Below are positions 39,884 to 62,790 of a stretch of DNA of 64,000 bases, in pieces; position 1 is the first letter of the stretch, and the number at the start of each line of letters is the position of its first letter. The translations under genes and the position numbers were made by a program. The notes under the pieces are model-generated. The model saw nothing but the letters and a program-made list of their open reading frames with translations. It was not told the DNA's origin and ran no database searches. Source of the DNA: Octopus vulgaris (taxonomy: Eukaryota); assembly GCA_951406725.2 (NCBI GenBank), contig OX597818.1:4216001-4280000 (forward strand), given 5' to 3'.

Positions 39884-40402
39884 TATATATATATATATAT
39901 ATATATATATATGGATATATACATGGATATAAATATATATATATATATATATATATATGGATATATATATATATATGGATATATACATGGATATAAATAT
40001 ATATATATATATATATATATATATATATATATATATATATATATATGGATATATACATGGATATAAATATATATATATATATATATATATATATATATAT
40101 ATGGATATATACATGGATATAAATATATATATATATATATATATATATATATATATATATATATATATATATATATATATATATATATATATATATATAT
40201 ATATATATATATATATATATATATATATATATATATATATATATATATATATATATATATATATATATATATATATATATATATATATATATATATATAT
40301 GGATATACATATATATATGGATATATATATGGAGATATATATATATATATATATATATATATATATATATATATATATATATATATATATATATATATAT
40401 AT
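39884..40402. repeat. Imperfect (TA)n array
   Basis: Direct reading. Contains repeated ggatatatacatggatataa variants. Confidence 0.97.
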
Positions 40403-40495
40403 AAAATTAAATAACAGTAGAAATTGATATTAATCAATTAAAACCAGTGGCCTACCATATTTTTAAAAAATCCGAAGATTAAAAATTTTTTTACA

Positions 40496-40722
40496 TACAA
40501 AATTTAGAGCACTGATCACTAAAAGTGGACAGCCTGTATACTAGATATAGAAGTCAAATTTGCCATTTTCCACGAAGAGTGTGTTCTCAAGAAACAATTC
40601 AGCAATGGTTTTTGCTGAATATTTTCTTGAGAACACATTCTTCATCGGAAAATGGCGATTTTGACATCTATATCTAGCATGCAGGCTGTCCACTTTTAGT
40701 GCTCAGTTCTCTAAATTTTGTA
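40496..40722. repeat. ~227-bp near-perfect palindrome (fold-back or MITE-like)
   Basis: tacaaaatttagag.actga.cactaaaagtggacagcctg... pairs with ...caggctgtccacttttagtg.tcagt.ctctaaattttgta. The loop is near 40610. Confidence 0.85.
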
Positions 40723-40822
40723 TATATATATATATATATATATATATATCCATATATATATCCATATATCTATATATATACATATATATATATATATATA
40801 TATATATATATATATATATATA

Positions 40823-41003
40823 TCCCTGGTCCCTGTGCTGATGGCACATAAAAAGTACCCACTACACTCACTCGGTAGCTGGCGTTAGGAAGAGCATGCA
40901 GATCAGAGTGGAGCCTGGTGCAGCCTCCTGGCTTCCCAGACCCCGGTTGAACCCTTCAACCCATGCTAGCATGGAAAACAGGTGTTAAACGATGATGATG
41001 ATG
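40823..41003 (+). mobile_element. RTE-3'-tail element with (GAT)n end, within (TA)n
   Basis: ggcgttaggaagagcat...gcctggtgcagcc...catgctagcatggaaaac...gttaaacgatgatgatg. Confidence 0.8.
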
Positions 41004-41039
41004 GATATATGGATATATATATACATATATATATATATA

Positions 41040-58768: not shown

Positions 58769-58769
58769 C

Positions 58770-59015
58770 ATAGAAAGCACCATCCGAACGTGGCCGATGC
58801 CAGACCCCTCTGGCACCTGTGCAGGTGGCACGTAAAAAACACCCACTACACTCGCGGAGTGGTTGGCGTTAGGAAGGGCATCCAGCTGTAGAAACACTGC
58901 CAGACTAGACTGGAGCCTGGGGCAGTCCCGAGCTCCCCAGACCCCGGTCGAAACCGTCCAACCCGTGCTAGCGCGGAAAACGGACGTTAAACGATGATGA
59001 TGATGATGATGATGA
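58770..59015 (+). mobile_element. RTE-3'-tail element with (GAT)n end
   Basis: ggttggcgttaggaagggcatccagc...cggacgttaaacgatgatgat. Confidence 0.82.
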
Positions 59016-59071
59016 TATATATATATATATATATATATATATATATATATATCATATAATATATATATTTT

Positions 59072-61341
59072 TGATTGATTGATTCTAGTTTCAGCTTATG
59101 AGCTGTGGCCATGCTGGGGCACCGCCATTTGGTGTTGCTACTTGGTTTCACTTCACGAAAGCTTTCTAGCAACTGCCATTTGGTGCATGAGAGAGTTCGA
59201 TGCAGCTGCCCCTCCTGCCGTGAAGTTGGTTCATCTGGGACACCTGACAGGAAGAGATCCAGCTTCATTTTAAAGACATCTGCATCCACCCCATGCAGGT
59301 CTCTCAGGTTCTTCGGGAGGATATTGAAGAGCTGTGGGCCTCAGAAGCCCAGGCTATCACAGAATCTTGTCCTACATCTTGATGGCAGGTTTGGAGTCCT
59401 AGGCACCACGCAGTGGCGCCCAGTTCTGGCATTTGCGTAACTCTCGATGCCAAAGTTCAGGACACGTCCCTCCAGGATCTTCCAGATGTATATTATGGCA
59501 TATCTTTCCCGCCTACGCTCCAGGGAATATAGTTTTAATCTCTTGAGTCTTTCCCAGTAGCTTACATTCTGCATAGAGGCTATCTTCTTCGTGTAGCTAC
59601 GTTGGATCGCCTCGAGCTCTGTGATCAACTTGACACTGGATGGTGACCATAGCTGAGAGCAGTAGTCAAAGTGGCTTAGGACAAGTGTCCTCCAGAGGAC
59701 CATCATGGTTTCTTGTTCTCTTGTTCTAAAGGTTCTGAGGATCCATCCGGCCAGTTGTCTACATTTCATTGCCAATTTAGCAACATGTACACGAAAGGTC
59801 GCGTCATCACTCATGTAAATACCTAGGTCATGCACAATTTGTGCCTCTGGGATTGCTATTCCTCCGGGTCCAGTGTATTCATTGGGTATTGCATTTAGTT
59901 TTGCATGCTGATAGTATAGAGCTTGAAACTTTTCAGCATTGAACTGCATGCTATTCTTTTCGGCCCACTTGTATATTTTGTCCAGCTCACATTGCAGGTG
60001 TTTAGTGTCCTCAGGGTTCTGTATTGCCTGTGAAACTTTTGTATCATCTGCATAACTTGTGATCGTGGCTCTCTGCGTGGCTGAGGTCATGTCTGAGAGG
60101 GCCATTATGAACAGTAGTGGTCCCAGAACAGTGCCCTGCGGAACACCGCTCACTATTTGCGTGTTAATGGAAGTGGCCCCATTGGCTACTACCACCTGAC
60201 TTCTATCTTTCAGAAAGTCAAGAAGCCATTCTCCCAGTTTTCCAACTATGTTGAGATCACGCAGTTTCTGACATATCATTCCATGATCGACTTTATCAAA
60301 GGCCTTTGCAAAGTCGAGATATATCACTTCCACATTTGAGTGGTTGAGCAGCCGTTTCAGCACCCAGTCATAGTGTTGTAGGAGCTGAGTTAAACAGCTT
60401 CTCCCTGGTCGGAAACCATGTTGGGTGTCGGGCAGCAAGTCATTCTCTTCAAGGAAGGTGATCAGCTTCCTTCTGACTATTCGTTCCATGACCTTGCTGA
60501 TGTGTGAGGTCAGAGAGATAGGTCTATAGTTCTTGGCTTCCGCTCTGCTACATCCTTTATGAATGGGGCATATTTTACCTTCCTTCAGTTTTCCTGGAAG
60601 TTTGCCAGCTGCAAGGAAGCTCTGAAAGAGGAACTGCAGTGGTCTTGCTAGGACTCTCTTACATGCTTTTAGGAGGATTGCCGGGAATCCATCGGGGCCA
60701 GTAGCTGAGTCTGTTTTCATTTCATCTATAGCCTTGGTTACATCGTCTTCCTTTATATCGATGTAATCTATCGTCGCCGCCTCTGATTTTATATCTGCAG
60801 TGGTAAAAAAGTCAGTTGGATTGGTGATTTGGAGATGCCCAAGGGGTGGAGTGAAAACACTCTTGAATTGCTCATTCAGTATTTCACTTACCCTCATTGG
60901 TTTTCCTGTAAGTGTGCCATCCTTTTCGAGGAGTGGCCCTATTCTACAGTGCACCGTAGCTGTTTCTTTGGCATACCTGTAGAAAGCTCTGGGGTTAGAT
61001 TTTATGTTGTCTATAGCCCAGGCTTCTTTGTCTGCTCTTTCCTTTTCATGGGAGAGTTTCAGACATTTTTCGAGTTCCAACAGTTTTATTTTTAGGCGGG
61101 ACTTTTCACTGCTTTCAATCTGTTTGTTTAGGCGATTTGAAAATTTCGTACGCCGTCTCATTAAAATTTTCCTCTCTCTGGGGATTTTGTTCTTGTGTAC
61201 AGTGGCCTTTCTCTCTGGGACACATTTGTAGCATATGGCTTGCATTACAGACATGAATTGTTGAAGTTTCACGTCGATGTCTGGCGAGGAGAGACATTTA
61301 GGCCAGTTTTGTTTGAGGATCTCTTTCTCAATTTGTTTCCA
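59072..61341 (-). mobile_element. CR1/L2-group LINE copy E (RT nearly intact, 5'-truncated)
   Basis: Open RT frame from WKQIEKEI to DSLGF, with an (AATC)n tail. Flanked by (TA)n. Confidence 0.93.
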
Positions 61342-62287
61342 TATATATATATATATATATATATATATATATATATATATATATATATATATATATATAT
61401 ATATATATATATATATATATATACATATATATATATATATATATATATATACATATATATATATATATATATATATATATATATATATATATATATATAT
61501 ATATATATATATATATATATATATATATATATATACATATATATACATATATATATATATACATATATATGTATATACATATATATATATATATATATAT
61601 ATATATATATATATATATATATATATACATATATATATACATATATATATATATATATATATATATACATATATATATATATATATATATATATATATAT
61701 ATACATATATATGTATATATATATATATATATATATATATATATACATATATATACATATATATACATATATATATATATATATATATATATATATATAT
61801 ATATATATATATATACATATATATATATATATATATATATATATATATATATATATATATATATATATATATATATATATATATATATATATATATATAT
61901 ATATATATATATATATATATATATATATATATATATATATATATATATATATATATATATATATATATATATATATATATATATATATATATATATATAT
62001 ATATATATATATATATATATATATATATATATATATATATATATACACACACATATATATATATACACATATATATATATATATATATATATATATATAT
62101 ATATATATATATATATATACACACATATATATATATACACATATATATATATATATATATATATATACACATACACACACATATATATATATATATATAT
62201 ATATATATATATATATATATATATATATATATATATATATATATATATATATATATATATATATATATATATATATATATATATATA
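61342..62287. repeat. (TA)n array
   Basis: Direct reading. Confidence 0.97.
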
Positions 62288-62790
62288 TCATCATCATTTA
62301 ACGTCCGTTTTCCATGCTATCGTGGGTTGGACAGCTGGATGCCCTTCCTAACACCAACCACTCCGTGAGTGTAGTGGGTGCTTATTACGTGCCACCAGCA
62401 CGGAAGCCAGTCAAGGCAGTGCTGGCATCAGCCACATTCGGCTGGTGCTTTTTACGTGCCACCAGCACAGATATCCAGCTACGATTTCCATTTGATTTTT
62501 ATTTGAGGTTGATGTACTTGACACAATAGGTCTCCTCAAGCACAGCAGGTTGCTCTACGACCCAAGGTAAGCACAGCAGGTCGCCCTGCAATCCAAAGTA
62601 CTTTAGATGGACTGGGGCTGCTATGTGAAGCTGGTGTAGGAAACAGCCATGAACTCACGTTATTCGTCGGGTCTTCGCAGTCACAGCATATCTCCAGAGA
62701 TCTCGGTCTTTTGTCATTGCCTCTGTGAGGCCCAACATTCAACGGTCATGCTTGACCACCTCATACCATGTCTTCCTGGGTCTACCTCTA
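62288..62790 (-). mobile_element. RTE-clade LINE 3' fragment
   Basis: Minus strand encodes RGRPRKTWYEVVKHDR..LGLTEAMTKDRDLWR, followed by the 3' UTR and (GAT)n tail. Confidence 0.82.

What the first reader, a model, noticed from the sequence alone, without database searches (positions are those of the whole stretch)
39884..62290. Five CR1-like LINE insertions, all bounded by (TA)n on both sides: microsatellite targeting and a self-enlarging landing pad
Seen: copies A-E belong to three subfamilies, lie in both orientations, and have five different 5' truncation points. Each goes directly from its short-repeat tail into (TA)n and from its 5' end into (TA)n. None occurs in the first 40 kb, where (TA)n is short. 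RTE tails and Helitrons also sit in these arrays. Established: microsatellite-specific non-LTR elements exist in the R1, R4 and Tx1 clades, whereas CR1/L2 are usually regarded as non-specific. Inference: the endonuclease prefers (TA)n, and target duplication plus slippage regenerates targets, inflating the intron.
Basis: partly seen in the sequence, partly recalled or inferred. Interest (0 to 1): 0.7.

Follow-up and report, generated by a model that had tools for sequence, protein, structure and literature searches.

The report
Octopus CR1-type LINEs home into TA repeats
Three young families of CR1-like jumping genes in an octopus genome sit inside TA microsatellites far more often than chance and pile up in clusters like this one, likely because their cutting enzyme nicks existing TA arrays; the idea that each insertion enlarges the array found no support.

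Summary
Observation confirmed and genome-wide. The five copies are 5'-truncated APE-RT LINEs with TA at all ten junctions, inside a ~135-kb intron of an octopus glycerol-3-phosphate phosphatase gene. They belong to three families (A 37% and B 74% ORF2 identity to C/D/E), each with 1,700-4,100 or more copies. Among sampled young C/D/E copies, 24 of 32 have TA on both sides (background 2.8%); A 17 of 23, B 10 of 26. An RTE-tail element (4 of 30) and a tail-sharing SINE (2 of 21) are near background at the 3' end, but are older. The downstream flank starts with AT in 29 of 30, and the two halves share interruption type (13 of 16), so pre-existing arrays were split. 'Self-enlarging pad' is not supported: no target duplication beyond a same-array null, longest arrays flank the youngest copies, and long arrays exist without LINEs. 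Penelope, RTE and Helitron-like elements also use TA here. No TA-targeting CR1 turned up in ten paper searches; Repbase was not checkable. The scan earlier noted Penelope elements in TA and Dong/Tx1 in ATT arrays, not this. Cleavage by the element's own enzyme is inferred.

The parts
41041..43938 (-). Copy B, 5'-truncated LINE (family B), cut inside the endonuclease domain; one premature stop; tail (TTAAGGAT)n at 41041-41062
   Evidence: ORFs and Pfam Exo_endo_phos_2 + RVT_1; up to 98.6% identical to sampled B copies; junctions
45686..46191 (-). Copy A, 3' 0.5 kb of family A; tail (AAAGTATC)n at 45686-45709
   Evidence: 95% to sampled A copies; family ORF2 37% identical to C/D/E
46718..49669 (+). 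Copy C, 5'-truncated, frameshifted; tail (AAAATC)n at 49645-49669
   Evidence: 95.2% to full-length copy L096; Pfam endonuclease
50357..52436 (-). Copy D, youngest of the cluster; tail (ATCA)n at 50357-50376
   Evidence: 99.4% to L096, starts at position 3369 of 5432
59069..61340 (-). Copy E; tail (ATCA)n plus three A
   Evidence: 97.4% to L096, starts at position 3165; 97.1% to D
39884..40403 (.). (TA)n array, 520 nt, no LINE beside it
41005..41040 (.). short (TA)n between an RTE tail and the tail of B
43939..44310 (.). (TA)n at the 5' end of B
44811..45685 (.). (TA)n / (TG)n / (TA)n at the tail of A
46192..46717 (.). (TA)n shared by the 5' ends of A and C
49670..49771 (.). (TA)n after the tail of C
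49923..50356 (.). (TA)n after the tail of D
52437..54773 (.). (TA)n at the 5' end of D, split by a Helitron-like insert
55080..55194 (.). (TA)n, 115 nt
59015..59068 (.). short (TA)n between an RTE tail and the tail of E
61341..62288 (.). (TA)n, 948 nt, at the 5' end of E
40824..41004 (+). 3' piece of an RTE-type element with (GAT)n tail (class name recalled)
   Evidence: self-BLAST with other window copies
49772..49922 (-). RTE-type tail piece, TA on both sides
58771..59014 (+). RTE-type tail piece running into TA
62289..62454 (-). RTE-type tail piece running into TA
53006..53391 (+). Non-autonomous Helitron-like element (TC start, 3' hairpin and CTAG end; class from recalled end rules)
   Evidence: sequence; 15 hits in fetched loci, some in TA, some not
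55195..58770 (.). 381-bp (7.5 copies) and 156-bp (3 copies) tandem repeats lodged between TA and an RTE tail; unclassified
   Evidence: no hit for the 381-bp unit in fetched loci
11850..12008 (-). Exon of host glycerol-3-phosphate phosphatase (PGP); the next upstream exon lies about 83 kb beyond the window end, so the cluster is in a ~135-kb intron

Best explanation
Three recently active CR1-like LINE families of this octopus genome insert mostly into existing (TA)n microsatellites, likely because their own APE endonuclease nicks the T-A step and works best in long TA arrays. Shown: the bias, its strength in young copies, the AT start of the downstream flank, the split of pre-existing arrays, the clustering. 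Inferred: a nick at T^A primes reverse transcription on the short-repeat RNA tail with 1-3 nt of pairing (tails contain A, AT or TAT); the second strand is joined at or near the same step, leaving no visible or only a very short duplication; synthesis usually stops early, giving 5' truncation. Both halves of a split array stay usable, so TA-rich stretches such as this intron collect LINE after LINE. The LINE bases (10.7 of 22.4 kb here) lengthen the intron; the TA is not shown to grow. The weaker bias of older copies likely reflects array decay or loss of copies between two TA flanks, or a sharpening preference; not separated.
For: C/D/E sample, first 70 hits on C1, 67 scored: TA at 3' 53 of 67, 5' 31 of 52; copies 98% or more like a neighbour: 36 of 40, 25 of 32, both 24 of 32; random positions 9.1%, 4.7%, 2.8%. 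A: 28 of 30, 17 of 23; B: 19 of 30, 14 of 26. Whole genome: of 1,086 tails that stop at the fifth ATCA unit, 705 go straight on with TA against 7% after ATCA in random DNA. 3' controls: RTE-tail 4 of 30, tail-sharing SINE 2 of 21, young Tx1-like 0 of 30; Fisher p 6e-11 for young C/D/E vs RTE-tail. Downstream flank begins AT in 29 of 30 young copies, upstream flank can end in T in 23 of 30. 30 of 30 young copies touch an array against 39-42% of genomic TAT sites; arrays of 500 nt or more 11 of 30 against 0-9%. Same dominant interruption on both sides 13 of 16, shuffled 7.3, p 0.003. Intact 998-aa ORF2 with APE motifs aligned to L1 ORF2p. L1 APE cuts TTTT/A (PMC1291365, passage).
Against: No cleavage assay. 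Controls are imperfect: the RTE-tail and SINE samples are older (nearest neighbour at most 96%), and the young Tx1-like family has its own fixed target. Unrelated elements also use TA here: young RTE tails end in TA in 5 of 5 cases in this intron and about 2 of 8 elsewhere (read), 32 of 50 young non-CR1 segments end at TA on one side (inflated by masking), and Naiad Penelope elements prefer (TA)n (PMC8557442, passages). The junction phase cannot be fixed to the base because tail and target overlap by 1-3 nt. The endonuclease hairpin loop is the short generic form, with no visible adaptation (comparison recalled). Very short B copies are weakly biased (3' 5 of 15). Older C/D/E copies: both sides 3 of 20. 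Flank samples come from the first 68 Mb of C1 only.
Confidence: 0.65

Rival explanations
1. Long TA arrays are host-made weak spots (cruciform extrusion, nuclease cleavage), and any reverse transcriptase complex captures these ends; the LINE endonuclease is not what chooses the site.
For: TA repeats form cruciforms that ERCC1-ERCC4 and MUS81 cut (PMC13645644, passages). Unrelated classes share the arrays. Bias to the longest arrays and lack of clear duplications fit break capture. A and C/D/E share the habit at only 37% identity.
Against: Families differ strongly: young C/D/E 36 of 40 and A 28 of 30 against RTE-tail 4 of 30; two young tRNA-type SINE copies with 11-nt duplications lie outside TA (L141, L146). 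Copies outside arrays still start their downstream flank with ATA (L069, L071, L074, L049, L080). Many targets are short arrays (under 70 nt in 8 of 30).
Confidence: 0.2
2. One reading: each insertion duplicates its TA target and slippage then grows the array, a self-enlarging landing pad.
For: Copies cluster (23 of 99 gaps under 25 kb, 3.4 expected) and LINE-flanking arrays are longer than background. With flanks swapped between copies, junction matches looked in excess (mean 10.1 vs 7.5 nt; interrupted matches 10 vs 4.7, p 0.01), and nine copies carry a 6-24 nt interrupted match.
Against: That excess vanishes against cuts inside the same arrays (10.2 vs 11.95 nt; 9 vs 6.3 +/- 2.0, p 0.14; 27 copies). 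8 of 30 exclude more than 5 nt. Array length correlates positively with youth (rho 0.66 overall, 0.40 among young copies). Halves share interruption type. 8 of 8 long arrays in the rest of the intron have no such neighbour.
Confidence: 0.07
3. Insertion is near random at AT-rich sites and copies are merely retained in TA-rich, low-constraint regions (as proposed for Drosophila Waldo-A/B near CA repeats).
For: Precedent in PMC3812793 (passage); the window cluster is deep in an intron.
Against: Retention predicts a bias that rises with age; it falls (rho 0.44 with youth). TA starts at the junction base, not merely nearby. Removing 97% of insertions in a repeat-rich genome is implausible (inference).
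Confidence: 0.05
4. The cluster, or the long TA runs, are assembly artefacts joined through TA.
For: Reads could not confirm the junctions; the assembly method of G000 is not given; long TA runs may be mis-sized.
Against: Copies with short arrays and unique flanks show the same junctions (L057, L084, L232, L309); the two sides share interruption patterns; the five copies differ in sequence and 5' end; host exons on either side are in order; the family is high-copy in independent runs.
Confidence: 0.03

Closest known systems
Microsatellite-targeting APE LINEs: Waldo (ACAY) and Mino (AC), Kibi (TC) and Koshi (TTC); also Dong (TAA) (PMC3812793, passages; clades R1, Tx1, R4 recalled)
   Same: Non-LTR retrotransposons that insert into a microsatellite; endonuclease choice is the accepted but unproven cause
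   Different: Target is (TA)n, absent from that list for LINEs; these elements are CR1-like; preference is strong but leaky; thousands of copies; both orientations because the target is palindromic
Naiad and Neptune Penelope-like elements (PMC8557442, passages)
   Same: (TA)n is the preferred target, duplications are hidden by the repeat, Octopus carries Naiads
   Different: GIY-YIG endonuclease and pseudo-LTRs there; APE + RT, two ORFs and a short-repeat tail here
CR1-clade LINEs (avian CR1, PMC8665684 passages; recently active CR1 in Octopus vulgaris, PMC13282606 parts 1-2 of 3)
   Same: EN and RT in one ORF, family-specific 3' microsatellite tail, frequent 5' truncation; 13 recently active CR1 families are listed for O. 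vulgaris
   Different: No target preference is reported in what I read; ORF1 here has a Myb/SANT-like start and CCCH finger(s), terms that do not occur in the Jockey-superfamily ORF1 survey PMC4120745
RTE-clade Tn-TA insertion signature (PMC6007223 and PMC13295347, abstracts only)
   Same: APE LINEs whose site choice involves TA and correlates with the 3' tail repeat
   Different: There a T stretch precedes a clear target duplication; here the site is inside (TA)n and no duplication was demonstrable
TA-microsatellite DNA transposons Micron (PMC3812793 passage) and MuTAnT (PMC4486113, search listing only)
   Same: Same target repeat
   Different: Cut-and-paste transposons of plants

Membership tests
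CR1-group LINE | APE endonuclease and RT in one ORF2 | tested here: met
   998-aa open ORF2 in L077, L095, L096; Pfam Exo_endo_phos_2 + RVT_1; aligns to L1 ORF2p
CR1-group LINE | 3' end is a family-specific short tandem repeat, not poly(A) | tested here: met
   (ATCA)n, (AAAATC)n, (TTAAGGAT)n, (AAAGTATC)n
CR1-group LINE | RT phylogeny groups with named CR1 references | not testable with these tools
   No named CR1, L2 or Zenon protein came back (Atlas searches gave nothing). The quick tree only shows A, B, C/D/E within one large unnamed group, far from the Tx1-like outgroup
CR1-group LINE | CR1-type ORF2 motifs (GVPQG..LGP, [YF]ADD.K, LDYC...WSP, C-terminal L..RR.R...I..[YW]K) | tested here: met
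   Present in C/D/E and A; the motifs themselves are recalled, not from a call
CR1-group LINE | ORF1 of a described type (PHD, esterase, RRM, CCHC, Tnp22) | tested here: not met
   ORF1 gives weak Myb_DNA-bind_4 (E 0.004) and zf-CCCH (E 0.013), both below Pfam cut-off; CCCH-like motifs also in B and A; one homologue only. ORF1 is known to be swapped in this group (PMC4120745 passages), so this does not exclude membership
CR1-group LINE | No or very short target-site duplication (recalled) | tested here: inconclusive
   No excess over same-array null, but nine copies are compatible with 6-24 nt
Sequence-specific (microsatellite-targeting) LINE | Most young copies inside one repeat type on both sides | tested here: met
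   24 of 32, 17 of 23, 10 of 26 against 2.8%; met clearly for C/D/E and A, partly for B
Sequence-specific (microsatellite-targeting) LINE | Fixed cleavage phase in the target | tested here: inconclusive
   Downstream flank begins AT in 29 of 30, but 1-3 nt overlap with the tail blurs the base
Sequence-specific (microsatellite-targeting) LINE | Endonuclease cleaves the target selectively in vitro | not testable with these tools
   needs a biochemical assay
R1, Tx1 or R4 clade (the known microsatellite targeters) | Clade-typical ORF2 (C-terminal zinc knuckle for R1/Tx1, restriction-like endonuclease for R4; recalled) | tested here: not met
   N-terminal APE, no such C-terminal domain in Pfam lists; 24% identity to the window's Tx1-like ORF2

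The most novel reading that the evidence does not exclude
A CR1-like lineage with a Myb/CCCH ORF1 has an endonuclease that reads long (TA)n as a structure (cruciform or unwound DNA), inserts without duplication, and lives in a revolving door: copies enter long TA arrays and are later cut out by slippage or annealing between the two TA flanks. This would be the first TA-targeting APE LINE, conserved across families only 37% alike, and would explain 60-kb TA/LINE mosaics and giant octopus introns.
Probability: 0.25. Interest if true: 0.72.

Novelty: new variant of a known kind. Interest (0 to 1): 0.5.

Why it matters
CR1-type LINEs are normally treated as non-specific, and the published list of microsatellite-targeting LINEs that I read has no (TA)n entry. 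Here at least 8,000 copies of three families show the bias, with intact ORF2 copies at 99% identity, so APE target choice can be tested directly on a simple palindromic repeat, including whether sequence or DNA structure is read. It also explains how TA-rich patches in octopus introns become 20-60 kb stacks of retrotransposons, and warns that TA microsatellite markers and assemblies in these animals are tied to mobile elements. It is a variant of a known strategy, not a new kind of element.

Tried and rejected
DNA similarity search of G000 with the 3' end of D found nothing because common words are skipped; patterns were used instead. The first 17-mer (26,743 hits) was dominated by a SINE and served only as a control. 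The first 5'-junction call for A and B ran through TA and was redone with TA-free references. The swapped-flank null for duplications was rejected because both flanks come from one array with one period. Fifteen copies with non-TA flanks showed no clear duplication of 6 nt or more, but several had 5' boundaries inside rearranged element sequence, so few are informative. Clade naming by homologue names, PDB and Atlas gave no CR1 reference. The careful tree did not finish; only the quick tree was seen. An age-matched control from young repeats was noisy. A loose hammerhead pattern gave nothing convincing in the unclassified inserts; Rfam gave only TA-driven miRNA matches below threshold. Local tandem duplication of D and E was rejected: different 5' ends, flanks and 3% divergence. 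Kapitonov and Jurka 2003 (PMC7528939) is not held.
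Full report
1. The observation. Between 39884 and 62290 the window alternates (TA)n arrays and mobile-element pieces. Five pieces are 5'-truncated LINEs with endonuclease and/or RT sequence: B 41041-43938 (-), A 45686-46191 (-), C 46718-49669 (+), D 50357-52436 (-), E 59069-61340 (-). All ten junctions run into TA; E has three extra A after its tail. 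C, D and E are 94-97% alike, B 75% to them. Pure TA runs make up 5,247 bases of the finding and 116 of the first 39,883. The first 39.8 kb hold only a 46-nt hit to these families.

2. Setting. The exon at 11850-12008 matches octopus glycerol-3-phosphate phosphatase (98% to a protein named Octopus vulgaris). The next upstream exon lies about 83 kb past the window end, so the cluster sits in an intron of about 135 kb that has further TA-rich blocks. The window is G000:C5:4216001-4280000 in a 2.8-Gb genome.

3. The elements. Exact family patterns give at least 4,086 (C/D/E), 1,727 (B) and 2,261 (A) copies. Two C/D/E copies share about 5.4 kb: an AT-rich tandem 5' region, a 300-aa ORF1 and a 998-aa ORF2 that is open in three copies. 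ORF1 has weak Myb/SANT and CCCH matches below Pfam cut-off; CCCH-like motifs recur in B and A. ORF2 identity is 74% for B and 37% for A against C/D/E, so A is a distant family. Tail type, domain order and motifs say CR1-like (motifs recalled); no named reference could be placed in a tree.

4. Is the TA flank general? I took the first 70 C/D/E hits on C1 without regard to flank and dropped three (one duplicate, one inverted composite, one without 3' end). Scoring 7 or more TpA in 24 nt: 3' 53 of 67, 5' 31 of 52; for copies at least 98% like a neighbour 36 of 40, 25 of 32, both 24 of 32; for older ones both 3 of 20. Random positions in thirty 10-kb stretches score 9.1%, 4.7% and 2.8%. First 30 hits of A: 28 of 30, 17 of 23, both 17 of 23; of B: 19 of 30, 14 of 26, both 10 of 26, with B copies under 100 nt at 5 of 15. 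Genome-wide, 2,210 tails have five or more ATCA units, 1,124 go on with ATC, and 705 of the remaining 1,086 continue with TA; background is 7%. 3' controls: RTE-type tails 4 of 30; a SINE sharing the LINE's 3' end 2 of 21 (nine of the 30 loci set aside as LINE, chimera, bare tail or duplicate); a young Tx1-like family 0 of 30. The first two controls are older and the third has its own target, so none is ideal.

5. Junctions. In 30 young copies with clean 5' ends (10 others excluded as gap, duplicate, rearranged, the reference itself, or copy E), the downstream flank begins with AT in 29 and the upstream flank can end in T in 23. Several copies outside arrays also continue with ATA. This fits a nick at T^A, the step that L1 APE cuts (PMC1291365, passage), with 1-3 nt of tail-target overlap; the overlap blurs the exact base. 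All 30 young non-window copies touch an array, against 39-42% of genomic TAT sites, and 11 of 30 arrays are 500 nt or more, against 0% (random 300 kb) to 9% (545 kb with control loci). In 16 copies with interrupted arrays on both sides, the dominant interruption agrees in 13 (7.3 expected, p 0.003): the array existed, with its pattern, before the LINE split it.

6. The 'self-enlarging pad'. Against swapped flanks, junction matches looked long (10.1 vs 7.5 nt), but against cuts inside the same intact arrays they do not (10.2 vs 11.95 nt; interrupted matches 9 vs 6.3, p 0.14; 27 of the 30). Eight of 30 exclude a duplication above 5 nt; nine are compatible with 6-24 nt, so short or occasional duplications are not excluded. 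Arrays are longest beside the youngest copies (rho 0.66; 0.40 among young ones), the opposite of growth after insertion. Eight of eight arrays of 150 nt or more in the rest of the intron have no such LINE neighbour. Clustering is real: 23 of 99 gaps are under 25 kb (3.4 expected), and two C1 clusters picked for density hold about 12 and 14 CR1-like insertions in 60-68 kb at 24-30% TA. A split array keeps both halves as targets, which is enough for stacking; LINE bases (10,708 of 22,407) lengthen the intron.

7. Mechanism. Best reading (0.65): endonuclease-led insertion at T^A in pre-existing, preferably long TA arrays. Main rival (0.2): capture at host-made breaks, since TA repeats form cruciforms that structure-specific nucleases cut (PMC13645644, passages) and unrelated elements share the arrays (PMC8557442). 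Family differences and ATA at non-array sites argue for the enzyme, but the two may combine. Passive retention predicts the wrong age trend. Artefact is unlikely because short-array copies show the same junctions, though reads gave no direct test.

8. What is known. PMC3812793 (passages) lists LINE targets ACAY, AC, TC, TTC and TAA, and TA only for a DNA transposon. PMC4640811 (passages) adds HERO and Togen microsatellite targets. PMC8557442 (passages) gives (TA)n for Naiad Penelope elements. PMC13282606 (parts 1-2 of 3 read, supplement not seen) lists 13 recently active CR1 families in O. vulgaris without target data. PMC10294476 (passages) finds CR1-Zenon rare in cephalopods. PMC3124438, PMC8665684, PMC4120745 and PMC1291365 were seen as passages; PMC6007223 and PMC13295347 as abstracts. 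Ten full-text searches showed no TA-targeting CR1; subscription journals and Repbase notes are outside them, so priority is uncertain. Earlier notes of this scan report Penelope elements in TA in this genome and Dong/Tx1 in ATT arrays, none on this family.

9. Verdict. Real, genome-wide and apparently unreported for this group: a new variant of a known strategy. Interest 0.5.

Noticed in passing
window 17600-22700 (-), loci L171-L200: Young Tx1/L1-like LINE (71 exact hits): about 20 of 30 copies continue into the same non-coding repeat at the same point (the 0.5-kb repeat at 16574-17586, Helitron-like ends), and several stand in tandem about 5.2 kb apart; a site-specific family.
   Followed up: partly
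window 21245-22705: 1.46-kb near-perfect palindrome (97%) in the ORF1 region of that Tx1-like element; 5' inversion or assembly feature, not examined.
   Followed up: no
L004 and L013: U6 snRNA-like head and 5S rRNA-like head (names recalled) fused to the last 40-50 nt of these LINEs; L004 is preceded by 64 nt of TA.
   Followed up: no
L001-L030: A very abundant SINE shares the LINE's 3' terminal motif (26,743 hits for the shared 17-mer) yet is not TA-flanked (2 of 21).
   Followed up: partly
L070, L275, L295: Copies of all three families sit in the internal TA tract of the same abundant SINE, so SINEs supply targets.
   Followed up: no
L251-L310: Half of B hits and a third of A hits are bare 3' ends of 27-84 nt, many starting at nearly the same base.
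   Followed up: partly
G000:C1 46.01-46.08 Mb and 71.43-71.50 Mb; L133, L166: A fourth related family (about 68% nucleotide identity to C/D/E) also lies beside TA arrays in the clusters.
   Followed up: no
window 55195-58046: The 381-bp tandem unit translates into the N-terminus of the predicted host protein P0001, so that gene model appears to start in a repeat.
   Followed up: no
window 40404-40720, 44312-44810, 54774-55079: Three unclassified inserts between TA arrays; the first has a 220-nt fold-back and relatives elsewhere, the other two had no hit in fetched loci.
   Followed up: partly
window 30500-34100 (-), 36886-37587 (+), 28273-28960 (+): Decayed Helitron helicase (Pfam PIF1), a GIY-YIG-like Penelope piece and a Tc1-like transposase piece (the last two named from recalled motifs).
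   Followed up: no
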